A stretch of 64,000 nt of DNA from Chloroflexota bacterium (GCA_005882255.1 VBEZ01000124.1:69953-133952); one strand, 5' to 3'; counted from the first letter of the stretch, positions 27,323-40,926 are shown. Made by a program: numbers and translations. Notes: a model not told the origin generated them from the sequence alone.

Positions 27323-29449
27323 TTGAAGGTCACTTGTCTACAAGAGAACCTCGCGCGCGGGCTCCAGATCGCCGGACGGGCCGTCTCGACGCGCGGCAGC
27401 CTGCCGATCCTCGGGAATGTGCTGCTTCGGACCGAGGGTGGGCGCTTGAAGCTCACCGCCACGAATCTCGAAGTCGGGATCAACTGCTGGGTTCCCGCGA
27501 AGGTCGATGACGAGGGCGCGATCACCGTGCCGGCGAAGCTCTTCACTGATTTTGTCAACTCCCTGCCGCCCGGCCCGACGGAGCTCTCGCTCAATGTCCG
27601 CACGAAGACGGTGCATCTGCGGCGCGATCCGTACGAAGCGAATTTCAAGGGCATGGACGCGGAGGAGTTCCCGATCATCCCCGTCGCGCCGGAAAAGCCG
27701 ACGACTCGCGTCAGCAAGTCCACGCTTCGTCGCATGATCGGCGAGGTCGCGTTCGTGGCCACGACCGACGACAGCCGACCCGTGCTCACCGGTGTGCTTA
27801 CCACGCTCGAGGGCGACAGGATCACGATGGCTGCGGCCGATCCCTACCGCCTCTCCGTGCGAAACGCGAAGCTGATCGACAAGGTAGAAGGAAAGCTCGA
27901 GGTCATCATCCCAGCGCGCAGCCTCCAGGAAGTGCAGCGGATCCTCGACGACAGCGATGATCCAGTGGACATCTTCGTGACCCCGAACGGTAGCCAGGTG
28001 ATCTTCCACACACCGGAGGTGGATCTCGTCTCACGTGTCATCGAAGGCCAGTTCCCGAATTACCGACAGGTCATCCCACAGGGCAAGCCCGCCACGCGGC
28101 TCGTGGCCCAGCGAGAGGAATTGCTGCAGGCCACCCGGCTCGCCTCGCTCTTCGCGCGCGACTCGGCGAACATGCTCCGCTTCCAGGTGAACCCCGCGGA
28201 CCATCCGCCACTCGTCATCAGCGCGAATGCCGCGGAGGTCGGCGACCAGACGGCGAAGGTGGAGGCGACGGTGGAGGGACAGAACACCACCATCGCGTTC
28301 AACTCGCGGTTCATCTACGACGCGCTCGGCAGCCTCACCGCGTCCGAGGTCGCGCTCGAGGACTTCCGCAGCTACGCACAAGTCGAGCTGCCGCTCGCGC
28401 GTGGCGCCACCACTTTCGTGGGACCGAACGGGGCCGGCAAGACGAACCTTCTCGAGGCGATCCACCTCATCGCGCGCGGCGACTCACCGCGCGCCCGCGA
28501 CGACACGGAGATGGTCCGCTGGGGCGCGACCACGGCGCGCGTCCGGACCGAGGTCGATCGTGCCGAGGACCACCGCCGCATCGAAACGCTCCTCTTCGCG
28601 CCCCCCGAGGGCGAACGCCGGCGGCCGCGCCGCTACCTGCTCGACGGTGCCGCCAAGCGGTCGGAAGATGCGGCCGGCGAGCTCGTCGTCGTTGCGTTCT
28701 TTCCGGAGGACGTCGAGCTGCTCGGGGCGGCGCCAAGCGCGCGCCGCCGATTCATGGACGCCATGCTCGGACAGATCGATCGCGCGCATCGTCGTGAGAT
28801 GCGTGAGCTTCAGCACGTGCTCGAGCAGCGCAACGCGCTCCTACGCGTCGCACGCGAGGAGCTCGAGCTGCCCGAGGCAGAGATGGCGTTCTGGGACGGA
28901 GAGCTCATTCGACTCTCGGCCGCGATCTCGCTCCGTCGGTCACGGCTCGCCACCGAGCTGTCGGCGCCGTTCGTGAGCGCGACCGAGCGCTTCACCGGCG
29001 CCGAGGGTCTGGCCCTCGCGTACGCGGGACAGGTGGAAGGCGCCACGCTGGACGAGCGCGCGAGCGCGTACGCGCGCGTCCTGCGCGAGAAACGCGAGCG
29101 CGAACGCTGGCAGGGAACGTCACTCGTCGGGCCCCAGCGCGACGATCTCGTTGTCACCTCGGCCGGTCGCATGTTGCCGGCCTTCGCGTCGCGCGGTGAG
29201 CATCGCAGTGCGGTGCTTTCGCTGAAGATCGCGGAGGCGGCGTGGCTCGCATCCCGCGTCGGAGAGCAACCGGTCTTCCTGCTGGACGACGTGCTCTCGG
29301 AGCTCGACCCCGCCCGGCGCGAGGCGCTCGCGAACGCCATCCCGCAGGACGCGCAGATCCTGCTCACCGCCGCGATCGTCACGGCCCTTCCCGACGTGCT
29401 GCGCGAGCGCGCCGCGGTGGTGCCGGTGCGGCGGGGCGAGGTCGGATGA
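27323..29449 (+). CDS. dnaN/recF: DnaN (beta sliding clamp) fused in frame to RecF as a single 708-aa ORF
   Basis: Residues 1 to about 336 are a DnaN clamp through FNSRFIYDAL, but the final MPxRL strand is missing. From about 28333 the sequence is RecF (SLTASEVALEDFRSY, Walker A GPNGAGKTNLLEAI, QRNALLR, GPQRDDL, LSLKIAEAAW, LLDDVLSELD). There is no stop and no in-frame start between them. Confidence 0.8.
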   Translation: MKVTCLQENLARGLQIAGRAVSTRGSLPILGNVLLRTEGGRLKLTATNLEVGINCWVPAKVDDEGAITVPAKLFTDFVNSLPPGPTELSLNVRTKTVHLRRDPYEANFKGMDAEEFPIIPVAPEKPTTRVSKSTLRRMIGEVAFVATTDDSRPVLTGVLTTLEGDRITMAAADPYRLSVRNAKLIDKVEGKLEVIIPARSLQEVQRILDDSDDPVDIFVTPNGSQVIFHTPEVDLVSRVIEGQFPNYRQVIPQGKPATRLVAQREELLQATRLASLFARDSANMLRFQVNPADHPPLVISANAAEVGDQTAKVEATVEGQNTTIAFNSRFIYDALGSLTASEVALEDFRSYAQVELPLARGATTFVGPNGAGKTNLLEAIHLIARGDSPRARDDTEMVRWGATTARVRTEVDRAEDHRRIETLLFAPPEGERRRPRRYLLDGAAKRSEDAAGELVVVAFFPEDVELLGAAPSARRRFMDAMLGQIDRAHRREMRELQHVLEQRNALLRVAREELELPEAEMAFWDGELIRLSAAISLRRSRLATELSAPFVSATERFTGAEGLALAYAGQVEGATLDERASAYARVLREKRERERWQGTSLVGPQRDDLVVTSAGRMLPAFASRGEHRSAVLSLKIAEAAWLASRVGEQPVFLLDDVLSELDPARREALANAIPQDAQILLTAAIVTALPDVLRERAAVVPVRRGEVG

Positions 29450-29739
29450 GACCCATCGCGCGCGCGATCGCGAGCGCGCTGCGCACGCTCGGGATCGACC
29501 AGGATGTGGCGCGCGCGGACGCCGTTCGCGCGTGGCCCGCGGCCGCGACGACGGTGCTTGGCGCCGACGCCGTGACGACGCGTGCGGTGCGCACTGACGG
29601 CGATACCCTCGTCGTCCTGGTGCCGACCGCGCAGTGGGCCGGAGAGATCAGACTCCGCGAGCGCGAGCTGCTGGTGGCCCTCGCGGACCGTGCGCCCGCG
29701 AGCCGCATCGCGCGTCTTCGGTGTGTGCCCTCGCCGTGA
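29446..29739 (+). CDS. dciA: DUF721/DciA-family protein (replicative helicase operator in dnaC-less bacteria)
   Basis: A 97-aa protein just downstream of recF with an ATGA overlap. Its conserved position and size match Rv0004-like DciA. Confidence 0.65.
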   Translation: MRPIARAIASALRTLGIDQDVARADAVRAWPAAATTVLGADAVTTRAVRTDGDTLVVLVPTAQWAGEIRLRERELLVALADRAPASRIARLRCVPSP

Positions 29740-29767: not shown

Positions 29768-31837
29768 ATGCCGCAACTGAGCTTCGTCACGACGGTCGGC
29801 AGCACGGCTGACGTGCGGGCAAGCCGCGCGGATGTGATCGTCGTGAGCGAGCCTGAGACCGGCGCGACCCTTCGCACCAAGGGCCGGCTCTACCTCTTGT
29901 TCGAGGCATCTCCGCCCGGACCCGCCGAAAAGATCGCCCGCGAGGTCGCGGAGCTGACGCGCCAGGAGTACTACTACGACCTTTCCGCGGGGATCGAGGT
30001 CTCGCTGCGACGTGCGCTGCGACAGGCGAACCGGCGCGCGACACAGCGGCTTCGGGAGAACCGCGGGTCGACAACGCTCCAGTGTGCGTGCGCCGTGATC
30101 GTGAACAACGAGCTGTACACCTCACACGTCGGCGGCGCGCAGGTGTTCCTCGTCCGCCGCGCGCGGCTCTTTCTCCCCGGCGACGAGCCCGGCGAGCTCG
30201 CCGATTTCGTCCATCGGACCACCAAGCGCGAGGCCACGTCGCTCGGTACGGACGCCGATGTGCTCCCGAAGGTGTGGCGCCAGTCGATCGAGGCGGGCGA
30301 CACGGTCATCCTCGCGAGCGCCGCGCTTATCGACGGGCTCGGTGCCGAGGCGCTGAAGAGCGCCGCGGTCACGCTGCATCCGCGGTCGGCGGCGGAGCAC
30401 ATCCACAATCGCGCGGTCGCGGACGGCGTGGTTGGCAGCGACGCGGTGATCTTCATCGAGGTCGCCCAGTCCGGCAGCGCGGCCGTTCGCATCGCACCGG
30501 AGCCGGCGCCGATCGTGCGGCCGGTCGAGGTCGCCGTGGCGGACGGCATTCGATCGCGGCTGGATGTGGTGAATCGCGTCGTGCAGAGCGTGGCGCGGCT
30601 GCTGCGCGGCGCGACGACGCCGGTGACCGCGGCGGCGACGAAGAGCGTGGCGGTCGGTCTGGAGCTCATGCCGCGGCGCGGCGCCGCCCTGCCGCGTCAC
30701 GCCGACACCGCGCGCTCGCGGTCCCGCCGACAGCGGCGCGCCATGACCACGCTCGCCGTGCTGCTGCTCGTCGCCGCGACCGGCGTTGGCGCCCTCGCCT
30801 ATCGCGACTACGAGTCGACCCGAGCGGGTCGCGAATACCAGCTCGCCGTCGCGAACGCGGAGGACTTCATCGCGTCGGCACACCGTTTGGCCGACCGCAA
30901 GCCGCCGGACCCCGACGGCGCGCGCGAGCGGATGGCCAGCGCGACCGCGAAGCTGGACGAAGCGAGCCGCTCGACCTTCGTTGTCCCGGAGAAGATCGCC
31001 GCGCTACGTGCGGACATCGCGGCCCTCACCGACCGCCTCGACGGCGTGATCCTCGATCTCGCGCGGTTCGGGACCGGAACGAAGCTCGCGCAGGTCATCG
31101 GGAACGTGAACGGTCTGTATGTCACCGACCCCGGCGCCGGACGGCTCTGGCGTGTCTTCGGCGACCCGGTCCAACAGGGGCCGGTACTCGAGCGCGGTGT
31201 CAAAGGCGTTGGCTCGCCGGTCCAGCTCGCGCTGGAGGACTTCGCGGTCTACTCGCTCGACGACGCGGGCAAGCTGTGGCGGGCCGAGGGCGATCAGGTC
31301 GTCGACGTGACGCCCGCCGAACGAGACAAGTGGAAGACGCCCGCCGCCCTCGCGGTGTTCGCGAACAACCTGTACGTCCTCGACAGCGAGACCGGCCAGC
31401 TGTGGAAGCACGAGTCGAACGACGGCGTTCGCTTCGGCCCGGCCATCGGGTATCTCGCGACGCCGCTCGCGCCGAACGCGGCCCGAGCGCTCGCGGTCGA
31501 CGGCGATGTCTGGATCGTGACCTCCGCCGGGGACCTGCAGCGCTTCCGCCGCAACCCGCTCGTCACGACCGCCTCGCGCATCGACTTCGTGCCGCGCTGG
31601 GAGGGGACGGCGCCGCGCGCGAACGCCGTCCAGGCCATCGACACGCAGGGATCGATCTACGTGCTCGACTCGGGCGGCAAGCTGATCGTCCAGCTCACGC
31701 GCGATGGCCGCGAGCTGGCGCGGTTCGCGCTGCCGCCCGGTCTGCCGCCCGCGGCGAGCTTCTACGTTTCCGAATCGCTGAGGGTCGCCTACACGCTTCA
31801 CGGGACGAAGATCGTCGCGACGAGCACCGTGCGTTGA
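29768..31837 (+). CDS. Bitopic membrane protein: a cytoplasmic degenerate PP2C-like (pseudophosphatase) domain, one TM helix, and an extracytoplasmic beta-propeller-like repeat domain
   Basis: PP2C-like blocks occur in order, but the metal-binding Asp residues are replaced (EASPPG for DGMGG; SHVGGAQ for GDSR; ASAALID for CSDGL). TM helix TLAVLLLVAATGVGALAY. The repeats are YVTDPGAGRLWRV, YSLDDAGKLWRA, YVLDSETGQLWKH and YVLDSGGKLIVQ. Confidence 0.65.
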   Translation: MPQLSFVTTVGSTADVRASRADVIVVSEPETGATLRTKGRLYLLFEASPPGPAEKIAREVAELTRQEYYYDLSAGIEVSLRRALRQANRRATQRLRENRGSTTLQCACAVIVNNELYTSHVGGAQVFLVRRARLFLPGDEPGELADFVHRTTKREATSLGTDADVLPKVWRQSIEAGDTVILASAALIDGLGAEALKSAAVTLHPRSAAEHIHNRAVADGVVGSDAVIFIEVAQSGSAAVRIAPEPAPIVRPVEVAVADGIRSRLDVVNRVVQSVARLLRGATTPVTAAATKSVAVGLELMPRRGAALPRHADTARSRSRRQRRAMTTLAVLLLVAATGVGALAYRDYESTRAGREYQLAVANAEDFIASAHRLADRKPPDPDGARERMASATAKLDEASRSTFVVPEKIAALRADIAALTDRLDGVILDLARFGTGTKLAQVIGNVNGLYVTDPGAGRLWRVFGDPVQQGPVLERGVKGVGSPVQLALEDFAVYSLDDAGKLWRAEGDQVVDVTPAERDKWKTPAALAVFANNLYVLDSETGQLWKHESNDGVRFGPAIGYLATPLAPNAARALAVDGDVWIVTSAGDLQRFRRNPLVTTASRIDFVPRWEGTAPRANAVQAIDTQGSIYVLDSGGKLIVQLTRDGRELARFALPPGLPPAASFYVSESLRVAYTLHGTKIVATSTVR

Positions 31838-32532
31838 TCCCGCTGCGGGATGCGAATCCCGTACGCAGCGCTCCGATCGTCAACCGCCTGCTCCTCGCGG
31901 TGAACCTCGTCGTCTGGATCTACATCGTGTACCTCACTCGGCAGCCGGGAGCGATGGAGGCGTTCTTCGACCGCTACTCGTTCGACTGGCCCGAGTTCAC
32001 GCGGCGCATCTCCTCCGGCGACCTCGCACCCTCGACGTTCGTGCCTCTGGTGTCGCACATGTTCCTGCACGGCGGCTGGCTGCACGTGCTCGGGAACATG
32101 CTCTATCTCTGGATCTTCGGCGATAACGTCGAAGACCGGTTCGGGAGCGCGCCGTACCTGGTCTTCTACCTGCTGTGCGGCGTCGTCGCGGCGATCGGGC
32201 AGGGTCTCGTCTCGCCGTCGCCGATGGTCGGCGCCTCGGGCGCGATCGCGGGCGTGCTCGCCGCGTATCTCATCATGTTCCCGACCGCGCGCGTGTCGAC
32301 ACTGGTGTTCCTCGGGCTGTTCATCACGATCGTCGAGCTGCCCGCGCTCATCGTCATCGGGATGTTCATCGTGCTTCAGGTCATCGAGGGTGTCGCCGAG
32401 CTCCGCCTCACGGGTCACGCAGCCGCGCAGCAGATCGCGTATTTCGCGCACATCTTCGGCTTCGCGGCGGGGCTGGTGCTTCTGGTGTTCTTCCGGCGCG
32501 CCGATACGGCACGCCGCGTGCGTTTCGGTTGA
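31834..32532 (+). CDS. Rhomboid-family intramembrane serine protease
   Basis: GxSG in TM4 (GASGAIAG) and the catalytic His in TM6 (AHIFGFAAG). TTG start overlapping the upstream stop. Confidence 0.8.
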   Translation: MIPLRDANPVRSAPIVNRLLLAVNLVVWIYIVYLTRQPGAMEAFFDRYSFDWPEFTRRISSGDLAPSTFVPLVSHMFLHGGWLHVLGNMLYLWIFGDNVEDRFGSAPYLVFYLLCGVVAAIGQGLVSPSPMVGASGAIAGVLAAYLIMFPTARVSTLVFLGLFITIVELPALIVIGMFIVLQVIEGVAELRLTGHAAAQQIAYFAHIFGFAAGLVLLVFFRRADTARRVRFG

Positions 32533-32577
32533 CGCGCAAACAGGCGACCGCGGGCGGGGTGGAGGTAGCCTAGGGCG

Positions 32578-33078
32578 ATGCTCGTCCCCTGTACGGTCGA
32601 GTCGGTCCGAGTGCATGTCCTCACGGGTCAGCACGTTGTCCTCCTTCAGGCGAAGGAGAGCAACCGTCTCCTACCGATCTGGATCGGACCCGACCAGGCG
32701 CACAGTATCGCGACGCGCATCGCCGGCATCGCGAGCGAGCGTCCGCTCACGCACGATCTGATGATGGACGTGCTCTCGAAGCTCGGCGTCGAGATCACCC
32801 GCATCGTCGTGAAGGATCTCGTCGCCGACGACAGCGGGGGCGGAGTGTTCCACGGCAGCCTGTTCCTGCAGTTCGGGGAGCGCGAGGTCGAGATCGACTG
32901 CCGGCCGTCCGATGCGATCGCGCTCGCGGTCCGCTGCGACGCGCGCATCCTGGTGTCGGACACGGTCCTCGATCGCTCCGCGATCTCAGCCGAGAGCGAG
33001 GACGACGAGAACATCGCGGTGTTCAAGGAGTTCATCCAGACACTCCCCGACGACCCGCCGGGTCCGAGTACCAGCTAG
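32578..33078 (+). CDS. Bifunctional-nuclease (BFN/DUF151) domain protein
   Basis: RLLPIWIGPDQAHSIA...THDLM...RPSDAIALA, the conserved DUF151 layout. Confidence 0.65.
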   Translation: MLVPCTVESVRVHVLTGQHVVLLQAKESNRLLPIWIGPDQAHSIATRIAGIASERPLTHDLMMDVLSKLGVEITRIVVKDLVADDSGGGVFHGSLFLQFGEREVEIDCRPSDAIALAVRCDARILVSDTVLDRSAISAESEDDENIAVFKEFIQTLPDDPPGPSTS

Positions 33079-33951: not shown

Positions 33952-35142
33952 ATGACCTGGAGCGACCGCAGGATCGCGACCCTGCTCGCGGCCGCAGGTG
34001 CCGTGGCGTACCTCGTCGCCGGGTCGGGACTTCTTACCGACTACGACTATTACGGACGTCTCGCGCAGGCGCTCCTCCACGGACAGTGGTGGGTGAGTGA
34101 AGCGCCGCCCTGGCTCAACGAGCTCGTCCCCTGCGGCGATGCGCGGTGGTGCGTCGTGTATCCACCGCTCCCGGCGATCCTCGCGATGCCGCTTGCGGCG
34201 GTGCTGCCGACCGCGCTCGCGCAGGTGCTCGTTTCGCGCATCGCGGGCGGCGTCTCCGCCGGGATCCTGTATCTCGCGCTGCGCGCGTTCGGAGCGCCGC
34301 GCCGCGTGGCGATCACCGGAGCGCTCCTCTCGACGTGCGGGACCACGCTCTTCTTCTCGAGCGTCGACGGACGTGCGTGGTTCGCGGCGCACGCCGTCGC
34401 GATGCCGTTTCTCTGCGCCGCCCTCCTGTTCGCCGCTCGCGGCGAGCGCGCGTGGGTCATCGGTGTCTGCATCGGGCTCGCGGCGCTGGCGCGCCTCCCC
34501 GTGGCCGCCGCGGCTCCGGCGCTGGCGCTGCTCCTCGCGCGGCGCGCCGGAGCGCCATATCTGCGAACGCTCGGGGGCGTCGTGATCGGCGGGGCGCCGT
34601 TCGCTCTCGTCTACGTCGGCTGGAACCTGCTGCGGTGGGGATCCGTGTTCGACGCCGGATACGTGCAGCTCACGCAGGGCGACGTCTTCTTCACCCGCGG
34701 ACTCTTCTCACCGTTCTATCTGCCGCGTCACATCTACGCGATCTTCCTCGAGCCGCCCGATCTCGTGGAGGGAACGCCGTTCTTCCTGCGGCCGCGCGGC
34801 ATCGGCACGGCGCTGTTCCTGACGACGCCGGCGTTCCTGTGGCTGTTCGCGGGTCTCCGCGGCCTGCGTCGTGACGCCGGCACCGCGGCCGTGGCGCTCG
34901 CCGCGCTGCTTGCGCTCGTGCCCGACATCTTCCACGGCACCGTCGGCTTCCAGCAGTTCGGCTATCGCTTCTCCATGGACGCGCAGCCCTTCCTCGTCGC
35001 GCTCGCGCTCGTGGGGGACGCACGCGGCGGTGCCACCTGGCGCGCGCGCCCGTCGTGGCTCTTCGTCGCGGTCGTGACGGTGTCGGTCGTGATCAACCTC
35101 TACGCGATGATCGCGATCACGCGCTTCGATTACTGGCAGTGA
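33952..35142 (+). CDS. Polytopic GT-C-like membrane glycosyltransferase (DUF2029/GT87-like)
   Basis: About 11 TMS, with an acidic/aromatic first loop TDYDYYG. ATG at 33952; the ORF-track start at 33862 would overlap the divergent GT2 start. Its stop overlaps the next gene's GTG (GTGA). Confidence 0.6.
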   Translation: MTWSDRRIATLLAAAGAVAYLVAGSGLLTDYDYYGRLAQALLHGQWWVSEAPPWLNELVPCGDARWCVVYPPLPAILAMPLAAVLPTALAQVLVSRIAGGVSAGILYLALRAFGAPRRVAITGALLSTCGTTLFFSSVDGRAWFAAHAVAMPFLCAALLFAARGERAWVIGVCIGLAALARLPVAAAAPALALLLARRAGAPYLRTLGGVVIGGAPFALVYVGWNLLRWGSVFDAGYVQLTQGDVFFTRGLFSPFYLPRHIYAIFLEPPDLVEGTPFFLRPRGIGTALFLTTPAFLWLFAGLRGLRRDAGTAAVALAALLALVPDIFHGTVGFQQFGYRFSMDAQPFLVALALVGDARGGATWRARPSWLFVAVVTVSVVINLYAMIAITRFDYWQ

Positions 35143-38100
35143 CCGAGACGGAGCTGACCGTGCGCGACGACCGCCGCACGAACCTCGCTACGGCGGGCCT
35201 CATCACCCTCGGTGTCGCGCTGCGCTTGCTGACGCTGCGCTCGCCCGGTTTCCCCAGCGACGTCGGCACGTTCCAGGCGTGGGCCGAGCACCTGGTCCAG
35301 GTCGGGCCCGGCGGCTTCTATGCGCCGGATTACTTCAGCGACTACCCGCCGGCCTATCTCTATGTCCTCTGGCTGTTCGGCGCCGTCTTCGATGGTGAGC
35401 TGCTCCGCCTCGCGGTGAAGGCCGCGAGCATCCCGGCGGACGTCGCGATCGCCGTCGGAGCGGCCGCGCTGGCGTGGCGTCACGCCGGTCGCGGGAGCGC
35501 GATCCTCGCCGCCGGCCTGTGGTCGCTCTCGCCGGCGGCGATCTTCGCCGGCCCGTACTGGGGGCAGATCGACGCGGTCGGGTCGCTGCCCCTCTTCGCG
35601 GCGCTCGTTGCCGCGGGACGCGGCCGCTGGGCGACGGCCGGTGCGCTCGCCGCGCTCGCCGCGATGGTGAAGCCGCAGTTCGGCATCGGCGCGGTCGTGA
35701 TCGCCGGCGCGGTGCTCATCGAGCTGATCCGGTACGGACGCTGGCAGCCGCTCGGGCGCGTCGCGCTCGCCGGCGTCGTCACCGCGCTCGCGCTGGGTGC
35801 GCCGTTCAAAGCGGGGCCCGCGGAGCTCGTCGACCTCGTGAAGAAAGCATCCGAGACCTATCCCTACACATCGCTGTTCGCGTTCAACGTGTGGTCGATC
35901 GCCGCCGATTTCTGGCAGCCCGACGCCGCGTACGTCGGCATCGGGACGCTGCTGCTGGTCGCGGGGCTGCTCGGCTCGTGCGTCCCGCTGTGGTGGCGCC
36001 GCGACACCGCGACGTTCCTCGCGGCGGGCACGCTCGCGGCCTGCGCCTTCTACTTCCTGCCCACGCGCGCCCACGAGCGATACCTGTTCCCTGCGCTCGT
36101 CCTGCTGCTCCCGCTCGCCGCGGTGCGCGCGCGCCTCCTCTGGCCGTACGTCGCGTTCTCCCTCGGCTTCGCGGTGACGCTGTACTTCGCGTTCACGCGC
36201 TACGCGCAGAACGACCTCAAGTCGCCGCCATGGCTCGAGTCGACGCTCTTCTCGCGCACCGGTCAGATCGTGCTCGCGCTCTTCATGCTCGGCACGGCCG
36301 GGCTCGTCGCGTGGCGGCTCCTCCGTGGCGAGGCGCGCCTCGAGCCGTCGCTCGATGTCTCCCTTCCGGCGGCGCCGGCGCCCGACGCCGAGCCGCGCGC
36401 TGCCTGGCGCCTGCCGGCGGCGCTCGCGACGGGACATGCGCCGACGCGCCGCGACCTTTCGATCGCACTGCTCGTCGCGATCGCCGTCCTCGTGACGCGC
36501 GGTTACCGGCTCGATCACCCGCGCGACATGTACTTCGACGAGGTCTATCACGCGCGCACCGCGTTCGAGCTCCTCGCGCAGCGCGATCCGTACGAGTGGA
36601 CGCACCCGCATCTCGCGAAAGAGATCATGGCGCTCGGCATCCTCGCGTTCGGCGACGATCGCGTCGTCGGTCACGAGCCTGCGCCTGGCGCGAACGCCGT
36701 GGCCCTCGCCGTCGGTCCCGACGGCACCCGCGCCTACGCCACGTCCGACGGCGTCATCACCCTTCGCGCGCGCGACAGCGCCGTGAGTCGCGACGTGGTG
36801 AAGGGCGCGCTCGGTGTGCGTGCCCTGGTCCTCGACGGCTCGCGCATCCTCTGGGCGACGGACACCGAACTCTTCCAGAGCCCGGTGACGGAGCCGCCGA
36901 GCAACTTCGTGACTCCGCGCGCGAGACTTCCGGTCGGCGGCCCGGTCACGGCGCTGTTCGTATCCGGCGGCCGCGTCGTCGTCGCCACCGCGTCGGGCGT
37001 CGCCGTCTACACCGCCATCGACGCGGCGCCGGTCGTCTCGCAGCTGGGCGCCGCGAGCGTGACGTCCAACCCGGACGGCACCGAGCTCTATGTCCTCGAC
37101 GCGCACGGCGATGTCCACGTCCTCGATCCCGCGACCGGCAACGAGACGCGACTGCTTCCGGGTGGCGGCCCGGGTCGCGCGATCGCATACGCGCAGGCGC
37201 CGAACCGACTCTTCGTCGCGCGCGCGGACACGCCGGCTCTCGACGTATACGAGCTGCCGAACGGCCAGCGCGACTCAGTGCCGCTCGCGAACGCGCGCAC
37301 CGGCACCTTCGCGTCGGGCGCGACCGCCCTGGTGGTCGTGCCGCGCACGCAGTTCCTCTACGCCCTCGCGGAGGGCCGCGTCGTGGTCGTCGAAGTGCAC
37401 GGCGCCTCGCCGTTCGCCGCGATACCGGTGTCGGGCTCACTCCTCGCGTTCGACAACGACGACGACAAGCTGCTCGTCGCGGGCCCCGGCGGTGCCGACC
37501 TCATCGAGACCGGACGCCACGCTCTTGCCTGGCGCCTGCCGGGGGTGTTGCTCGGCGCGATCCTCGCGTTCTTCCTCGTGCTACTCGCGCGCCGGCTGTT
37601 CGCTTCGCCGGCCGTGGCGTGGCTCGTCGGCGCGGCGGTGCTGCTGTGCGGATCGATGTTCGCGCAGGCGCGCATCGGCATGAACGACATCTACGTCGCG
37701 ACGTTCATCGTCGCCGGGTGGTACTTCATCGTCGCGGCGCACCGGCCCCGGCGTTCCGCCGCCGCCGACCTCGTGATCGCGGGAGCGCTGCTCGGGCTCG
37801 GCCTCGCCTCGAAGTGGGCCGCGGCCTACACCCTGGGTGGCGTCTTCGTGCTATCAGTCGGCGTCACCGCGCTCGCGTACGAACGCGGGCGGCCCGGGAC
37901 CGGCGGACCGCTCGATCTTCTCGCCGGCCGGGGACGTGGCGCCGCGCTGCTCTTCGTCTCGTTCGCGGTGATCCCGCTCCTCATCTACCTCGGTAGCTAC
38001 GCGAGCTGGTTCGGCGGCAAGACGGCGCCGTACGGCTGGAATCTGTGGGAGCTCACGCAGCAGATGTACTGGTACCACAGCTCCCTGACCGCCCCGCACT

Positions 38101-38732
38101 GCGCGGGCTCGCCCTGGTGGAGCTGGCCGCTCGATCTCAAACCGGTCTACTGGTACTTCGGCGCGAGCGGCGGCGGCGCGAATGGGTACATCTACGACGC
38201 CGGCAACATCGTGCTCTTCTGGGCGGCGTTGCCGGCGGCCGCGCTCATCGTCGCGCTCGCGGTCCGCGCGCGGTCGCACTCGCTCGCGCTGCTGTCGCTC
38301 GCGATGCTCGCGCAATACCTCGCGTGGATCCCGATCTCACGCGTCCTGTTCTTCTACCACTTCTTCACCGTGCTGCCGTTCTACCTCCTCTCCCTCGCCG
38401 CGGTGCTTGGCGGGCTGTGGGAGCGCCGGCGGAAGGCGGTGCTCGTGTTCGTCGGGATCGCCGCGGCGTCGTTCGTCATCTTCTATCCGTACGTCTCCGG
38501 CCTGCCGATCCCGGGTGAGCTCGGGAGCCTCTACGCGATCCTGCCGACGTGGCAGTACGACCCGGCGTTCTATCCGACCGACTCATGTCCGACGCCGGTG
38601 AGCGCGGGGGTGCTGACGTCGGCGACCGTCGCGGCGGCGTGGATCGTCGAGACCGCCGTGCTGCTCTTCGCCGTCGCCGTCGCGATCGGCCTGCCGGCCG
38701 CGCGTCGGCTGCTCGACCGACTCGGGCTCTAG
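35139..38732 (+). CDS. Roughly 1197-aa chimeric membrane glycosyltransferase: an N-terminal GT-C/DUF2029-like module, then a GT39/PMT-like module whose first periplasmic loop (DE motif) carries a roughly 300-aa beta-propeller-like insert
   Basis: N-module PDYFSDYPPAYLYVLWLFG. PMT signature MYFDEVYHARTAFELL...HPHLAKEIMALGILAFG. The insert has repeats such as TELYVLDAHGDVHVLD and LFVARADTPALDVYEL. After the insert come the canonical PMT/ArnT helices LLARRLFASPAVAWLVGAAVLL...QARIGMNDIYVATF. GTG start coupled to the preceding gene. Confidence 0.7.
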   Translation: MTETELTVRDDRRTNLATAGLITLGVALRLLTLRSPGFPSDVGTFQAWAEHLVQVGPGGFYAPDYFSDYPPAYLYVLWLFGAVFDGELLRLAVKAASIPADVAIAVGAAALAWRHAGRGSAILAAGLWSLSPAAIFAGPYWGQIDAVGSLPLFAALVAAGRGRWATAGALAALAAMVKPQFGIGAVVIAGAVLIELIRYGRWQPLGRVALAGVVTALALGAPFKAGPAELVDLVKKASETYPYTSLFAFNVWSIAADFWQPDAAYVGIGTLLLVAGLLGSCVPLWWRRDTATFLAAGTLAACAFYFLPTRAHERYLFPALVLLLPLAAVRARLLWPYVAFSLGFAVTLYFAFTRYAQNDLKSPPWLESTLFSRTGQIVLALFMLGTAGLVAWRLLRGEARLEPSLDVSLPAAPAPDAEPRAAWRLPAALATGHAPTRRDLSIALLVAIAVLVTRGYRLDHPRDMYFDEVYHARTAFELLAQRDPYEWTHPHLAKEIMALGILAFGDDRVVGHEPAPGANAVALAVGPDGTRAYATSDGVITLRARDSAVSRDVVKGALGVRALVLDGSRILWATDTELFQSPVTEPPSNFVTPRARLPVGGPVTALFVSGGRVVVATASGVAVYTAIDAAPVVSQLGAASVTSNPDGTELYVLDAHGDVHVLDPATGNETRLLPGGGPGRAIAYAQAPNRLFVARADTPALDVYELPNGQRDSVPLANARTGTFASGATALVVVPRTQFLYALAEGRVVVVEVHGASPFAAIPVSGSLLAFDNDDDKLLVAGPGGADLIETGRHALAWRLPGVLLGAILAFFLVLLARRLFASPAVAWLVGAAVLLCGSMFAQARIGMNDIYVATFIVAGWYFIVAAHRPRRSAAADLVIAGALLGLGLASKWAAAYTLGGVFVLSVGVTALAYERGRPGTGGPLDLLAGRGRGAALLFVSFAVIPLLIYLGSYASWFGGKTAPYGWNLWELTQQMYWYHSSLTAPHCAGSPWWSWPLDLKPVYWYFGASGGGANGYIYDAGNIVLFWAALPAAALIVALAVRARSHSLALLSLAMLAQYLAWIPISRVLFFYHFFTVLPFYLLSLAAVLGGLWERRRKAVLVFVGIAAASFVIFYPYVSGLPIPGELGSLYAILPTWQYDPAFYPTDSCPTPVSAGVLTSATVAAAWIVETAVLLFAVAVAIGLPAARRLLDRLGL

Positions 38733-39637
38733 GGGCTCGCGCTCGGCGGCGGCGCCGTCGGCGACGGTTCCGACGTCGGGGACGGCGTCGGTGTCGGTGT
38801 CACGGACTCGCTCGCCGTGGGCGACGCGGTGAGGGGACTCGGTCGCGCCGAAGAAGCCGGCGGGACGGAGCTCGCCGCGAAGAGGACCGCGACCGCGCCG
38901 CCGATCGTGACGAGGATCAGGAGCGCGAACACGATGAATGCGACCGCGCGGCCCGCGGTGCTCGTGACCGTCGGCCCGCGCGTGGGCGCGTGTACGAGGA
39001 CGGTGATGTTGTCCTGACCGCCGCGGGCGTTCGCGAGGTCGACGAGCGCGTTCGCCGCGACGCGCACGTCCTCACCGCTCGCCGCCTTCGCGATCTCTTC
39101 GGGCGTGACGTGGCGCGTGAGACCGTCGCTGCAGAGCAGGAGCCGGTCGGTCGGACGCAGGCTCTCGACGTAGATGTCCGGTTGGATGCCACGCACGTCG
39201 CCGGCGAAACGCGTGATCGCGTGCGCCATCTCGCCCGAGTGATCCTCGGTGAGCTGCCGGCTGGCGCCGTCGCGGATCAGGTACGCCCGGCTGTCGCCGA
39301 GGTTGGCGATGATCGCCTGGTCCGCGCGCACCGCCGCGGCGACGATGGTGGTCGCCGCGTCGTGATGGCCCGATGCGCTCGCCGCCCTCAGCACAGCGGC
39401 ATTCGCATCGCGCATCGCCTCGGCGAGCGCGTCGCTCGTCGCGCGATCGGGCGGCGCACCGAAAAAGCGGAGCCCGAGCTCGACGAGCGCGGCATCCGCC
39501 GCGACCTCACCACCGCTCGATCCGCCGACGCCGTCGGCGACGGCGAGCAGCGTGACGCCGCGCTCTTCGCGGACGAGGTAGCGGTCTTCGTTCCCGTCAC
39601 GAACGCGGCCCGTATCGGTCCTCGCACCGGTCGCCAC
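38729..39637 (-). CDS. PP2C-family Ser/Thr phosphatase (PstP-like) with a C-terminal TM helix and a Pro/Ser/Thr-rich extracytoplasmic tail
   Basis: Motifs TDTGRVRDGNEDRYLV, AVADGVGG, GDSRAYL, LLCSDGL and GGQDNITVLV. TM helix FIVFALLILVTIGGAVAVLF, then a PTPTPSPTSEPSPTAPPP tail. The likely start is the internal GTG; the ORF-track start at 39787 overlaps the kinase. Confidence 0.85.
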   Translation of the reverse strand: MATGARTDTGRVRDGNEDRYLVREERGVTLLAVADGVGGSSGGEVAADAALVELGLRFFGAPPDRATSDALAEAMRDANAAVLRAASASGHHDAATTIVAAAVRADQAIIANLGDSRAYLIRDGASRQLTEDHSGEMAHAITRFAGDVRGIQPDIYVESLRPTDRLLLCSDGLTRHVTPEEIAKAASGEDVRVAANALVDLANARGGQDNITVLVHAPTRGPTVTSTAGRAVAFIVFALLILVTIGGAVAVLFAASSVPPASSARPSPLTASPTASESVTPTPTPSPTSEPSPTAPPPSASP

Positions 39638-39642
39638 GCGCG

Positions 39643-40926
39643 TCAGTCCTGCGACTTCCCGCCGCAGTCCTTGCCGCCGACGAGGAAGAGGCGCGCGGTC
39701 GCGCCCTGCTGCGCGGCCGTCCCGGGCTGCGGCTCCTGCCGTGCGACGGTGCAGGCCTGGCCCTGCGCCGCGGGATCCACCTGCCACGGCACGGGAGACC
39801 GGTAGCCCGCCGCGATGAGAAGCCGCGCCGCCTCGTCGACGCTCCGACCGACGACGTTCGGCGTGACGTGTGCGCCGGCGGATGCCGACGGAGCGCCGGT
39901 GGGCCGCGCATCGACCGCACGGCCCTGGAACGACGCGAAGATCGCGAGCGTGGCGACGAGCACGAGGACGATCGCCAGGAGCGCGATCGTCGTGTCGACA
40001 TGGAACTCGCGCCGACCGCGGGCGCGAAGCGGCCGCGTCACCGGTGGCAGGACGCCCGTAGCGTCGTCGCGCTGCGACGCCGCGAGCAGTTCGCGCGCGA
40101 ATGCTCCGGCGCTCGCGTACCGGCCCTGCGGATCTCGCGCGAGCGCCTTCGCGACGACCCGGTCGATCTCCTCGCTGATGCCGACACGTGCCGAGCGCAG
40201 CGACGGCGCCCGACCGTCCAGGCGGACGCGCAGCAGATCCTCGGTCTCCATCTCGGCGTTCGGCGGCCGACCGGCGATGAGCTCGTAAGCGACGAGACCG
40301 AGGCTGTAGACATCGCTGCGCTCGGTCGGAGCGCGGCCCTCGATGCGCTCCGGCGCGATGTACCGCGCGGTGCCGATGAGCTCGTGCTCGCGTGGCCCGC
40401 GCGCCGCGCGCGCGATGCCGAAGTCGGTGAGCTTCGCGGTGCCCTGCTGGTCGACGATGACATTCGCAGGCTTCACGTCGCAGTGGATGACGCCCGCTTC
40501 GTGCGCCGCGTCGAGCGCGGCCGCGATCTGCGCCACCAGGCGCGCGGCCTCGTGCGGGCGTAGCGGTCCGCGGTCAGCCACGACGTCACGCAGCGTTCGC
40601 CCGCGCACGAGCTCCATGACCATGAAGGCGTCGGCGCCGTCGCGGCCCTCGTCGAAGACCGTGACGACGTTCGGATGTATCACGGACGCCGCGCGCCGCG
40701 CCTCATCCGCGAAGCGCTCGCGGAACGCCTCGTCGGCACTGGGACCCAGGATCTTGATCGCCACATCGCGGTCGAGGCGCTCGTCGCGAGCCTGCCAGAC
40801 CTCGCCCGCGCCGCCTTCGTCGATGCGTTTGTTCAGGCGGTAGCGGCCGGCGAGGACCCGGCCCTCCGTCGCGTCCTCACCACCTTCGGCGCGTTCTTCC
40901 GATGGCATGCCTTTCGTTGGCGGCAA
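39643..40926 (-). CDS. Hanks-type Ser/Thr protein kinase with a single C-terminal PASTA domain; non-RD catalytic loop (HCD)
   Basis: VAIKIL, HCDVKPANV (Arg to Cys in the HRD motif), DFGIA, GTARYIAPE, a TM helix, and one PASTA domain (VTPNVVGRSVDEAARLLIAAGY...). Confidence 0.85.
   Translation of the reverse strand: MPPTKGMPSEERAEGGEDATEGRVLAGRYRLNKRIDEGGAGEVWQARDERLDRDVAIKILGPSADEAFRERFADEARRAASVIHPNVVTVFDEGRDGADAFMVMELVRGRTLRDVVADRGPLRPHEAARLVAQIAAALDAAHEAGVIHCDVKPANVIVDQQGTAKLTDFGIARAARGPREHELIGTARYIAPERIEGRAPTERSDVYSLGLVAYELIAGRPPNAEMETEDLLRVRLDGRAPSLRSARVGISEEIDRVVAKALARDPQGRYASAGAFARELLAASQRDDATGVLPPVTRPLRARGRREFHVDTTIALLAIVLVLVATLAIFASFQGRAVDARPTGAPSASAGAHVTPNVVGRSVDEAARLLIAAGYRSPVPWQVDPAAQGQACTVARQEPQPGTAAQQGATARLFLVGGKDCGGKSQD

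What the first reader, a model, noticed from the sequence alone, without database searches (positions are those of the whole stretch)
29768..33078. Transmembrane pseudo-PP2C with an extracellular beta-propeller, followed by a rhomboid protease and a BFN/DUF151 nuclease-like gene, directly downstream of dciA
The 689-aa protein has a cytoplasmic domain with the PP2C block order. Every metal-coordinating Asp motif is substituted: EASPPG, SHVGGAQ, ASAALID, SDAVIFIE. That predicts a catalytically dead pseudophosphatase. It is tethered by one TM helix to an outside domain of YVxDxxGxLW repeats. It overlaps (TTG/TGA) a rhomboid intramembrane protease gene, and a DUF151 bifunctional-nuclease-like gene follows. 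The layout is reminiscent of regulated-intramembrane-proteolysis signalling units, sited next to the origin where actinobacteria normally keep the fhaAB-pstP-rodA-pbpA-pknAB wall-growth operon.
Basis: partly seen in the sequence, partly recalled or inferred. Interest (0 to 1): 0.6.

Follow-up and report, generated by a model that had tools for sequence, protein, structure and literature searches.

The report
Membrane receptor with dead-looking PP2C domain
This gene encodes a conserved, uncharacterised membrane protein of soil Chloroflexota (class Limnocylindria) with a sensor-like beta-propeller outside the cell and, inside, a phosphatase-fold domain that has lost key catalytic residues; it is probably a non-catalytic signalling receptor, and its link to the neighbouring rhomboid protease is frequent but not universal.

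Summary
The gene layout is real: dciA, a 689-aa ORF (29768-31837), a rhomboid gene (31834-32532, TTGA overlap), then a BFN/DUF151 gene (32578-33078).

**Protein X**
- Residues 1-235 have a PP2C fold (Foldseek E~1e-11 to PstP/tPphA; hhalign 92%), but no Pfam PP2C hit.
- One N-in TM helix (325-345) follows, then a three-helix bundle and a six-bladed PknD/NHL-like propeller (pLDDT 92).
- The metal site is degenerate but not fully erased. The SDGL Asp, the GDSR Asp and the DGxGG motif are lost. The Asp equivalents of PstP D25 and D229, and Arg20, are kept. A Glu sits at or near the D38 position.

**Organism and family**
- The organism is Limnocylindria (Chloroflexota), not an actinobacterium.
- A genuine membrane PP2C and a PASTA kinase lie about 6 kb downstream.
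- X belongs to an undescribed family of 690-860-aa proteins with this architecture.

**Rhomboid pairing**
- dciA-X-rhomboid-BFN is kept in about 115 close loci and in three divergent lineages.
- Two other Limnocylindria lineages have dciA-X-BFN with no rhomboid. A Chloroflexia subfamily sits next to a RodZ-like gene instead.

**Verdict**
X is most likely a receptor-type PP2C pseudophosphatase. Cleavage by the rhomboid remains an untested minority reading.

The parts
29440..29739 (+). dciA (DUF721), overlapping the end of recF by 10 nt and ending 28 nt before X
   Evidence: Pfam PF05258 E 8e-8, above the gathering cut-off. It lies upstream of X in 72 of 79 metagenome or looked-up loci with room, and in all genome loci.
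29768..31837 (+). Gene X: 689-aa single-pass membrane protein (pseudo-PP2C / TM / helical bundle / beta-propeller)
   Evidence: ORF and start confirmed by same-length homologues. dN/dS is 0.08-0.13.
29768..30472 (+). Cytoplasmic PP2C-fold domain (aa 1-235) with a degenerate metal site
   Evidence: Foldseek PDB top hits are tPphA, PstP, PppA and Stp1, E 1e-11. hhalign gives 92.3% against genuine PP2Cs. There is no Pfam PP2C hit. The NCBIfam Stp1_PP2C match is only E 2.4e-4, far below its cut-off.
30161..30274 (+). Flap-like insert (aa 132-169, RRARLFLPGDEPGELADFVH...). It is the most conserved segment at high divergence and has low pLDDT. Candidate partner-binding element.
   Evidence: 80% identity in relatives that are under 60% identical overall, against 53% for the propeller and 43% for the TM helix. 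pLDDT is 41-43. It is invariant.
30473..30739 (+). Linker (variable, one predicted helix) plus a conserved Arg-rich juxtamembrane motif (LELMPRR...SRSRRQRRA)
   Evidence: An LxPRR / RRxxQRR motif is also seen in distant family members.
30740..30802 (+). Single transmembrane helix (aa 325-345), N-in / C-out
   Evidence: Hydropathy scan. The positive-inside flank can be read from the sequence.
30803..31042 (+). Extracytoplasmic three-helix bundle (aa ~346-425)
   Evidence: The AF2 model has helices at fragment residues 2-31, 37-55 and 62-79, with pLDDT above 90.
31046..31825 (+). Six-bladed NHL/PknD-like beta-propeller (aa ~427-686) with repeated LYVxDxxGxLW blades
   Evidence: AF2 pLDDT 91.9. 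Foldseek hits: 1rwl PknD sensor E 3.4e-10, TRIM NHL domains, Pizza6. The Pfam NHL match is marginal, E 3e-4.
31834..32532 (+). Rhomboid intramembrane serine protease, with TTG start overlapping the X stop codon (TTGA)
   Evidence: Pfam PF01694 E 1e-33. The HxxxxHxxxN, GASGAI (Ser) and AHxxGF (His) motifs are conserved across relatives.
32578..33078 (+). BFN/DUF151-domain protein (166 aa)
   Evidence: Pfam PF02577 E 3.5e-34. The PDB relative is TM0160 (1sj5/1vjl), E 6e-19. It follows X, or X plus rhomboid, in nearly all Limnocylindria loci.
38729..39637 (-). Genuine membrane-anchored PP2C phosphatase (context, PstP-like). All Asp motifs are intact; it has a TM helix and a Pro/Ser/Thr-rich outside tail.
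   Evidence: Pfam PP2C_2 1e-18 and PP2C 1.9e-15. The NED, ADGVGG, GDSR, SDGL and QDNIT motifs are read. The exact start codon is not settled.
39643..40926 (-). PASTA-domain Ser/Thr protein kinase (context, PknB-like)
   Evidence: Pfam Pkinase 1.2e-47 and PASTA 3.1e-5. The PP2C-kinase pair is conserved in relatives.

Best explanation
Gene X encodes a receptor-type PP2C pseudophosphatase.

**Architecture**
- It is a single-pass membrane protein with the N-terminus inside and the C-terminus outside.
- The ectodomain is a three-helix bundle plus a six-bladed PknD/NHL-like beta-propeller. This is the likely ligand- or envelope-sensing part.
- The cytoplasmic domain keeps the PP2C fold but has lost the bridging DGxGG motif and the SDGL Asp. 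Canonical two-metal phosphoester hydrolysis is therefore unlikely.

**Proposed function (inferred, not shown)**
- The cytoplasmic domain acts as a binding or scaffold module in Ser/Thr phospho-signalling at the cell envelope.
- It may bind a phosphoprotein, the nearby PASTA kinase or the genuine PP2C.
- Binding would use the retained phosphate-binding Arg, the remnant acidic pocket and the very conserved flap-like segment.

**Genomic setting**
- The gene is part of a co-directional, tightly spaced origin-proximal string: recF-dciA-X-rhomboid-BFN.
- This string is ancestral to much of class Limnocylindria.
- The rhomboid is a frequent but dispensable neighbour.
For: **Fold and homology**
- Foldseek E 1e-11 to PstP, tPphA, PppA and Stp1.
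- hhalign probability 92.3%.
- The profile reaches genuine PP2Cs at about 1e-10.
- NCBIfam Stp1 gives sub-threshold hits in several family members.

**Degenerate site**
- The D191 equivalent is absent in every family member examined.
- The D38 position is E in some lineages and T/S/A/Q in others.
- The D118 equivalent is absent in all but one.

**Selection**
- The PP2C-like domain has the lowest dN/dS of the globular parts, 0.03-0.095.
- The flap-like segment is the best-conserved region at high divergence. The domain is therefore used, just not for what the lost residues did.

**Ectodomain and topology**
- The AF2 model has pLDDT 91.9 and its top match is the PknD sensor.

**Context**
- A genuine PP2C and a PASTA kinase lie about 6 kb away and are conserved there.
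- The Chloroflexia subfamily sits next to a RodZ-like gene. Glycosyltransferases (GT2, PMT/GT87-like) flank the Limnocylindria locus. Both point to an envelope theme.

**Precedent**
- E. coli RssB carries a degenerate PP2C domain that acts as an adaptor (PMC6546054).
- PHLPP2 and TAB1 are eukaryotic examples.
Against: - No biochemical data exist.
- R17, D22, E46 and D225 are invariant in the window's lineage. They could still hold one metal, so residual or altered activity cannot be excluded.
- I could not inspect model coordinates, so the register at the DGxGG position is ambiguous. Helix register and the MAFFT alignment place E46 at the D38 position; hhalign places S48 there.
- The N-terminal AF2 model is only moderately confident (mean pLDDT 68.8, from a shallow 24-sequence alignment).
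- The signalling partner is a guess from neighbourhood. The whole dnaA-to-PMT block is syntenic in this class, so adjacency carries little functional weight.
Confidence: 0.55

Rival explanations
1. Regulated-intramembrane-proteolysis module. X is the physiological substrate of the co-encoded rhomboid. The state of the ectodomain gates cleavage in or near the TM helix. Cleavage releases the pseudo-PP2C domain into the cytoplasm, or sheds the propeller.
For: - The stop and start codons overlap by 4 nt.
- X-rhomboid adjacency is kept in 60 genome loci and in 55 of 56 close-lineage metagenome loci with enough flank.
- It is also kept in three much more divergent lineages: P0124, P0150/P0389 and P0136, whose ectodomains share about 24-42% identity with X where BLASTP aligns them.
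- The rhomboid has an intact catalytic Ser/His.
- The TM helix has dN~0 among close relatives. It carries small residues (ATGVGA) towards the outer leaflet.
Against: - The rhomboid is absent next to X in the P0135-type lineage (two loci), the P0158 lineage, L125 and the Chloroflexia subfamily. X keeps the same architecture there.
- At larger divergence the TM helix is among the least conserved regions (43% identity), less than the cytoplasmic domain.
- X is N-in/C-out, the opposite of most characterised rhomboid substrates (my own knowledge; not an absolute bar).
- The whole ori block is syntenic in this class, so adjacency may be inherited rather than functional.
Confidence: 0.17
2. X is still an active but atypical PP2C-type phosphatase. 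It would use a remodelled metal site (D22, E46, D225) and be regulated by its ectodomain, as a sensor-coupled paralogue of the PstP-like enzyme.
For: - R17, D22, E46 and D225 are invariant across the window's lineage.
- Glu can ligate Mn2+ or Mg2+.
- JGI pipelines name some members 'PrpC'.
- Genuine membrane PP2Cs with large ectodomains (P0242, P0250) are the nearest active relatives.
Against: - The D191 equivalent is missing in all members.
- The D38 position is T/S/A/Q in the large P0135-type lineage, so no bridging carboxylate is conserved family-wide.
- The glycines of DGxGG, whose backbone helps bind M2, are replaced.
- The Asn of DNxT is lost.
- Pfam PP2C models do not detect the domain at E<=0.1.
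- From my own recollection of the published work (not checked here), mutating the equivalent Asp residues in PP2Calpha abolishes activity.
Confidence: 0.15
3. X is mainly an extracytoplasmic envelope protein, for example a glycan- or wall-binding propeller. The cytoplasmic PP2C relic would have only a structural or oligomerisation role, with no part in phospho-signalling. Its position after dciA would be historical.
For: - Envelope-related neighbours are present: GT2, PMT/GT87-like genes, and a RodZ-like gene in Chloroflexia.
- The propeller model is very confident.
- The alpha1-alpha2 region, which contains the YYYDxSAG motif, is invariant across the broad family. In SpoIIE-type PP2Cs this region is the dimerisation switch (Bradshaw 2017, as cited in PMC6546054).
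Against: - The cytoplasmic domain is more constrained than the propeller.
- The flap-like segment, which is the substrate-side element in PP2Cs, is the most conserved part. That is hard to explain for a mere relic.
Confidence: 0.13

Closest known systems
PstP (Mycobacterium tuberculosis Rv0018c) and other membrane-anchored bacterial PP2C phosphatases
   Same: Same topology: an N-terminal cytoplasmic PP2C-fold domain, a juxtamembrane linker, one TM helix and an extracytoplasmic domain. PstP structures 2cm1 and 1txo are among the top fold matches. A true PstP-like enzyme sits in the same window.
   Different: - X lacks DGxGG, the GDSR Asp and the SDGL Asp.
- It is not detected by the Pfam PP2C models.
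- Its ectodomain is a helical bundle plus a six-bladed propeller.
- It is encoded after dciA, not in a pknAB/rodA/pbpA operon.
PknD extracellular sensor domain (PDB 1rwl/1rwi), NHL-repeat six-bladed propeller
   Same: Best PDB match to the X ectodomain (E 3.4e-10, TM 0.67 on the target). The only weak sequence hit in the PDB. Both are tethered by a single TM helix to a cytoplasmic Ser/Thr-signalling-type domain.
   Different: In PknD the cytoplasmic partner is an active kinase. Here it is a degenerate phosphatase fold. X also has an extra three-helix bundle between the membrane and the propeller. No ligand is known for either.
RssB C-terminal domain (E. coli), a bacterial PP2C-fold pseudophosphatase; TAB1 and PHLPP2 in eukaryotes
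   Same: A PP2C fold that has lost some catalytic Asp residues and is used for binding or adaptor functions rather than catalysis (PMC6546054; PMC12002173).
   Different: RssB is a soluble response regulator that delivers sigma-S to ClpXP. X is a membrane receptor-like protein with an ectodomain, and I found no sequence relationship beyond the shared fold.
Rhomboid substrate pairs (for example Providencia AarA/TatA)
   Same: An active-looking rhomboid is encoded immediately after, and overlapping, a single-pass membrane protein gene.
   Different: No cleavage evidence exists. The substrate orientation is opposite to TatA and Spitz. The pairing is missing in several lineages of the same protein family.
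Cor / Rv1829 and TM0160 (DUF151/BFN-domain proteins)
   Same: The downstream gene is a single-domain DUF151 protein. It is homologous to TM0160 and has the same domain composition as Cor.
   Different: Cor is linked to carbon-monoxide resistance and showed no nuclease activity in vitro (PMC3870250). Nothing ties that phenotype to this locus. The 'nuclease' label is not established for bacterial members.

Membership tests
PP2C/PPM Ser/Thr phosphatases (catalytically competent) | PP2C alpha/beta sandwich fold | tested here: met
   Foldseek E 1.4e-11, probability 1.0, TM 0.65-0.73 on the target to tPphA, PstP, PppA and Stp1. hhalign probability 92.3%.
PP2C/PPM Ser/Thr phosphatases (catalytically competent) | Bridging Asp in the DGxGG motif (PstP D38/G39) | tested here: not met
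   The motif reads E-A/V-S/A-P/G-x-G. There is no Asp. E46 or S48 aligns to D38, depending on the register. Other lineages have T/S/A/Q at this position.
PP2C/PPM Ser/Thr phosphatases (catalytically competent) | Asp of the SDGL motif (PstP D191, M1 ligand) | tested here: not met
   It aligns to A185 (A or G within the lineage). It is absent in all family members examined.
PP2C/PPM Ser/Thr phosphatases (catalytically competent) | Asp of the DNxT motif (PstP D229) and Asp of the RxxNED motif (PstP D25); phosphate-binding Arg (R20) | tested here: met
   D225, D22 and R17 are invariant in the window's lineage. The D225 = D229 assignment rests on secondary-structure register and on similarity to P0242 (GGSDNITAIV against GEGSDAVLAIE). 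MAFFT shifted this position by 2. The Asn of DNxT is lost.
PP2C/PPM Ser/Thr phosphatases (catalytically competent) | Third-metal Asp of GDSR (PstP D118) | tested here: not met
   G/A123 occupies this position.
PP2C/PPM Ser/Thr phosphatases (catalytically competent) | Score above the curated Pfam or NCBIfam thresholds | tested here: not met
   No Pfam PP2C, PP2C_2 or SpoIIE hit at E<=0.1. NCBIfam Stp1_PP2C scores 20.7 bits against a cut-off of 230.
PP2C/PPM Ser/Thr phosphatases (catalytically competent) | Metal-dependent phosphatase activity | not testable with these tools
   Needs purified protein.
PP2C-fold pseudophosphatases (RssB-CTD, TAB1, PHLPP2 type) | PP2C fold with loss of some catalytic Asp, yet under purifying selection | tested here: met
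   dN/dS is 0.03-0.095 for the domain.
PP2C-fold pseudophosphatases (RssB-CTD, TAB1, PHLPP2 type) | Demonstrated lack of activity and a non-catalytic binding role | not testable with these tools
   Inference only.
NHL / PknD-type six-bladed beta-propeller sensor | Six four-stranded blades closing a ring; NHL-like repeat signature | tested here: met
   The AF2 model (pLDDT 91.9) shows about 24 strands in six repeats. Foldseek hits are PknD, TRIM NHL domains and Pizza6. The Pfam NHL match is only marginal, E 3e-4.
Rhomboid protease (neighbour gene) | Pfam Rhomboid domain with the GxSG Ser and TM6 His dyad and the HxxxN motif | tested here: met
   PF01694 E 1e-33. The motifs are conserved in ten relatives.
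Rhomboid-substrate (RIP) module | Conserved co-occurrence of substrate and protease genes | tested here: inconclusive
   Kept in about 115 close loci and in three distant lineages. Absent in four other lineages or loci.
Rhomboid-substrate (RIP) module | Rhomboid-dependent cleavage of the TM segment | not testable with these tools
   Needs a co-expression cleavage assay.
BFN/DUF151 (neighbour gene) | Pfam BFN_dom; homology to TM0160 | tested here: met
   PF02577 E 3.5e-34. 1sj5/1vjl E 6e-19. Nuclease activity was not tested and is doubtful for bacterial members (PMC3870250).
Anti-phage defence systems (PADLOC) | Match of X, rhomboid or BFN to a defence-system model | tested here: not met
   No PADLOC hit at E<=0.01.

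The most novel reading that the evidence does not exclude
X and the overlapping rhomboid form a bacterial receptor-proteolysis switch at the replication origin. Ligand or envelope status read by the PknD-like propeller would gate rhomboid cleavage of X. That cleavage would free a pseudo-PP2C domain that binds phosphoproteins, or the co-transcribed DciA or BFN proteins, and so couple cell-envelope state to Ser/Thr signalling or to replication and the cell cycle. This would give a natural, genetically linked substrate for a bacterial rhomboid, and the first receptor-type PP2C pseudophosphatase in bacteria.
Probability: 0.1. Interest if true: 0.8.

Novelty: new variant of a known kind. Interest (0 to 1): 0.5.

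Why it matters
- Bacterial pseudo-enzymes in Ser/Thr signalling are few. RssB and the MviN pseudokinase are examples. I found none described that combines a PstP-like membrane topology, a PknD-like sensor propeller and a degenerate PP2C domain.
- The family has hundreds of members at the 50% cluster level. It has no Pfam or NCBIfam model and sits at a fixed, origin-proximal position in an abundant, uncultured soil class.
- Natural substrates of bacterial rhomboids are largely unknown. A translationally coupled rhomboid next to a single-pass membrane protein is a cheap, directly testable candidate pair, even though the comparative evidence here is only moderate.
- If the domain turns out to be active, it would instead define a PP2C variant with a remodelled metal site.

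Tried and rejected
- **Pfam on X.** Only a marginal NHL repeat was found and no PP2C. Sequence and profile searches of the PDB with the N-terminal domain found nothing. Homology therefore had to be shown by fold search, hhalign and intermediate family members.
- **MAFFT alignment with genuine PP2Cs.** It placed the GSD motif 2 residues out of register with DNxT. I overrode it using the secondary-structure register and the P0242 comparison. This is a judgement call.
- **Metagenome scan with the broad alignment.** It returned only close relatives, because the best 80 are kept. It added counts but no new lineages.
- **Defence-system idea** (protease plus a 'nuclease'). There are no PADLOC hits, and the locus is a universal ori-proximal block rather than an island. 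Rejected.
- **Actinobacterial wall-growth operon analogy.** No FHA, rodA or pbpA genes were found among the ORFs checked. The neighbours are yidC, dnaA, glycosyltransferases and pentose-phosphate genes.
- **Special TM conservation as a sign of rhomboid recognition.** It is true only among close relatives and is not sustained at higher divergence.
- **Promoter and terminator scan.** It was uninformative in this 70% GC genome.
- **Literature.** I found no description of this family.

Full report
**1. What is at the coordinates**

The ORF list and the raw sequence show a co-directional string on the + strand:
- A dnaN-recF ORF ends at 29449.
- dciA spans 29440-29739 (Pfam DciA E 8e-8).
- A 689-codon ORF, X, runs from ATG 29768 to TGA 31837.
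- A rhomboid gene starts at TTG 31834, overlapping that stop codon (TTGA), and ends at 32532 (Pfam Rhomboid E 1e-33).
- A BFN/DUF151 gene spans 32578-33078 (E 3.5e-34).

A longer reading of X from GTG 29582 would overlap dciA. It is also contradicted by homologues, which are 689-692 aa and start MPQLSF/MPAASF.

X is a real, constrained gene. There are 525 homologues at E<=1e-3. Mean column identity among 16 sequences at 66-88% identity is 80%. Nei-Gojobori dN/dS against five relatives is 0.08-0.13.

**2. Organism**

All named homologues and all 60 species-representative genome loci come from Candidatus Limnocylindria or Chloroflexota MAGs. A few loci carry other labels (Saccharimonadales, Udaeobacter, Bathyarchaeia, Acidiferrales). 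They hold the same ori block, so these look like binning errors.

**3. The cytoplasmic domain**

*Detection.* Pfam finds no PP2C-type domain at E<=0.1. Neither the sequence nor a family profile hits any PDB chain through this domain. Four other results establish the homology:
- An AlphaFold2 model of aa 1-340 has mean pLDDT 68.8. The core segments 5-130 and 170-235 are mostly at 80-92, while 132-169 and 237-314 are low. Its top Foldseek PDB hits are all PP2C phosphatases: tPphA, PstP, PppA and Stp1, at E 1.4e-11 to 1e-10, probability 1.0, TM 0.65-0.73 on the target.
- hhalign of the family against PstP, tPphA and two genuine Limnocylindria PP2Cs gives probability 92.3%, E 5.4e-7 over about 200 columns. 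It was verified as identical to 2cm1.
- An exhaustive profile search reaches genuine membrane PP2Cs (P0242, P0250) at about 1e-10. Both have intact DGMGG, GDSR, SDGL and DNIT motifs.
- NCBIfam Stp1_PP2C gives sub-threshold hits to several family members: 2.4e-4 for the window, 2.9e-11 for P0136 and 4.6e-9 for P0195.

The PP2C ancestry is therefore solid.

*Catalytic residues.* Mapping onto PstP gives:

| PstP residue | Role / motif | X equivalent | Status |
|---|---|---|---|
| R20 | phosphate-binding Arg | R17 | kept, invariant in lineage |
| D25 | RxxNED | D22 | kept, invariant in lineage |
| D38/G39 | DGMGG (bridging Asp) | E-A/V-S/A-P/G-x-G | motif lost; E46 (helix register, MAFFT) or S48 (hhalign) at the D38 position |
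| D118 | GDSR (third metal) | G/A123 | lost |
| D191 | SDGL (M1 ligand) | A/G185 | lost |
| D229 | DNVT | D225 | Asp kept, Asn lost |

The D229 = D225 assignment rests on strand and helix register in the model and on the match GGSDNITAIV / GEGSDAVLAIE. MAFFT placed it 2 residues off.

Across the wider family:
- The D191 position is never Asp.
- The D38 position is E in some lineages and T/S/A/Q in the large ~760-aa lineage.
- The D25 and D229 equivalents are mostly, but not always, Asp.

Still, the two carboxylates that build the binuclear centre (D38 and D191) are not conserved as Asp in this family. Canonical PP2C chemistry is unlikely. This is an inference; activity was not measured.

*Selection.* The domain is nevertheless the most constrained globular part (dN/dS 0.03-0.095). 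The single best-conserved stretch at high divergence is the flap-like insert, aa 132-169 (RRARLFLPGDEPGELADFVH...). It stays 80% identical in relatives that are under 60% identical overall. It is predicted with low confidence in the monomer model, which is the typical signature of a partner-binding element. Also invariant family-wide are a YYYDxSAG motif between alpha1 and alpha2 and an RxKGxL strand.

**4. Membrane and outside parts**

One hydrophobic segment lies at 325-345. It is preceded by a conserved Arg-rich juxtamembrane motif, LELMPRR...SRSRRQRRA. This places the PP2C-like domain in the cytoplasm.

The AF2 model of aa 346-689 is very confident (pLDDT 91.9, pTM 0.87). It shows three long helices followed by a six-bladed propeller. 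The best PDB match is the extracellular sensor of M. tuberculosis PknD (1rwl, E 3.4e-10), followed by NHL domains and the designed Pizza6 protein.

**5. The family and its contexts**

The N-terminal profile finds 565 cluster representatives at E<=1e-3, of which 124 are at E<=1e-10. Many are 690-860-aa proteins with the same layout: degenerate PP2C, one TM helix, then an ectodomain weakly similar to that of X. They have no Pfam domains. Pipelines occasionally name them 'PrpC'. I found no paper describing them.

| Lineage | Gene order at the X locus |
|---|---|
| Window lineage, X 50-95% identical | dnaA-dnaN-recF-dciA-X-rhomboid-BFN in all 60 genome loci with enough flank and in 55 of 56 close-lineage metagenome loci; the exception L125 has X-BFN |
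| P0124 | dciA-X-rhomboid-BFN |
| P0150/P0389 | dciA-X-rhomboid-BFN |
| P0136 | dciA-X-rhomboid-HAD |
| P0135-type, ~760 aa (two long contigs) | dciA-X-BFN, no rhomboid |
| P0158 | dciA-X-BFN, no rhomboid |
| Chloroflexia-class subfamily | away from the origin, followed by a RodZ-like gene |

In Limnocylindria the most stable neighbour is dciA, upstream, followed by BFN. The rhomboid looks ancestral to the locus but has been lost from it repeatedly.

The rhomboid itself has all its catalytic motifs. BFN is a TM0160-like single-domain protein. The only studied bacterial member I found, Cor/Rv1829, showed no nuclease activity (PMC3870250).

**6. How it most likely works**

*Shown:*
- the fold;
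- the degenerate catalytic site;
- the topology;
- the propeller;
- purifying selection concentrated on the cytoplasmic domain and its flap-like segment;
- the conserved origin-proximal operon-like arrangement;
- a genuine membrane PP2C (all motifs intact, TM helix, Pro/Ser/Thr-rich tail) and a PASTA kinase about 6 kb downstream, conserved there in relatives.

*Inferred:* X is a receptor-type pseudophosphatase. The propeller would report something about the envelope or the medium. The cytoplasmic PP2C relic would bind, rather than dephosphorylate, a partner in the Ser/Thr signalling network. This is analogous to the degenerate PP2C domain of RssB, which serves as an adaptor (PMC6546054), and to TAB1 and PHLPP2. 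I put this at about 0.55.

*Rivals:*
- X is the substrate of the adjacent rhomboid (about 0.17). Tight coupling and recurrence in divergent lineages support it. Lineages without the rhomboid, the unremarkable conservation of the TM helix at distance and the N-in orientation weaken it.
- X is an atypical but active phosphatase using D22, E46 and D225 (about 0.15). The absence of a conserved carboxylate at the D38 and D191 positions family-wide weakens it.
- X is a mainly extracytoplasmic envelope protein whose cytoplasmic relic is structural (about 0.13).

**7. Novelty and score**

Each component is a known kind: the PP2C fold, pseudophosphatases, PstP topology, the PknD propeller, rhomboid and DUF151. 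The combination appears undescribed: a widespread, unmodelled family of receptor-like PP2C pseudophosphatases fixed next to dciA in an abundant uncultured soil class, often translationally coupled to a rhomboid. I rate it a new variant of a known kind with interest 0.5. It is worth a bench test, because both the pseudophosphatase question and the rhomboid-substrate question are cheap to answer. The comparative evidence for the more exciting RIP reading is only moderate.

Noticed in passing
window 27323-29449 (junction near 28349-28361): dnaN and recF form one in-frame 708-aa ORF. Compared with relatives at 95-97% identity, the window lacks exactly 120 bp: the last ~31 dnaN codons, the stop, the spacer and the first ~6 recF codons. 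The gap lies between two copies of the microhomology TCGCGCT[TC]GAG. All related loci have separate genes. This is either an assembly or deletion artefact, or a real fusion that truncates the clamp.
   Followed up: partly
window 38729-39637 (-) and 39643-40926 (-): A genuine PstP-like PP2C sits here, with intact NED, ADGVGG, GDSR, SDGL and QDNIT motifs, one TM helix and a Pro/Ser/Thr-rich outside tail. It is directly downstream of a PASTA-domain Ser/Thr kinase. The pair is conserved at this spot in relatives. The P/S/T-rich tail, next to a PMT-like protein-mannosyltransferase gene, hints at O-glycosylation.
   Followed up: partly
window 35055-38732 (+): A 1225-aa membrane protein combines a weak GT87-like N-terminal part with PMT and PMT_4TMC C-terminal parts. 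By eye, the central ~300 aa look like another beta-propeller-type repeat region. The protein is conserved across the class, and some lineages have versions of 1683-1811 aa.
   Followed up: no
L039, L046, L047, L049, L051, L058 (between dciA and X): Six related genomes carry an extra 1.3-1.6 kb between dciA and X. Many loci also have about 1.3 kb more between BFN and the GT2 gene. The GT2 gene is on the opposite strand in the window compared with L001 and L020. I did not examine the content of these inserts.
   Followed up: no
L030, L040, L043, L059 (record titles): Contigs labelled Saccharimonadales, Udaeobacter, Bathyarchaeia and Acidiferrales carry the Limnocylindria-type dnaA-dnaN-recF-dciA-X block, with flanking replication genes at 74-92% identity to the window (dciA lower). 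This is probably mis-binned contamination in those MAGs.
   Followed up: no
L066 9001-12094 and L069 6001-9171: In the Chloroflexia-class subfamily of X (P0195, P0427) the gene is not at the origin. It is followed, 11-28 nt downstream, by a RodZ-like gene (HTH plus RodZ_C) and a CN-hydrolase gene. This arrangement is conserved in both loci examined.
   Followed up: partly
P0132 and P0157 (cluster representatives): In both proteins the ectodomain part turns into Arg/Gly/Pro-rich sequence unlike the other members. This suggests frameshifted gene calls in the source assemblies. I excluded them from the alignments.
   Followed up: no
window 29768-31837, P0135-type relatives: The ~760-aa relatives that lack the adjacent rhomboid carry an extra C-terminal Pro/Ser/Thr/Lys-rich tail after the propeller. 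The window's protein lacks this tail. I did not test whether the tail and the rhomboid are mutually exclusive.
   Followed up: no
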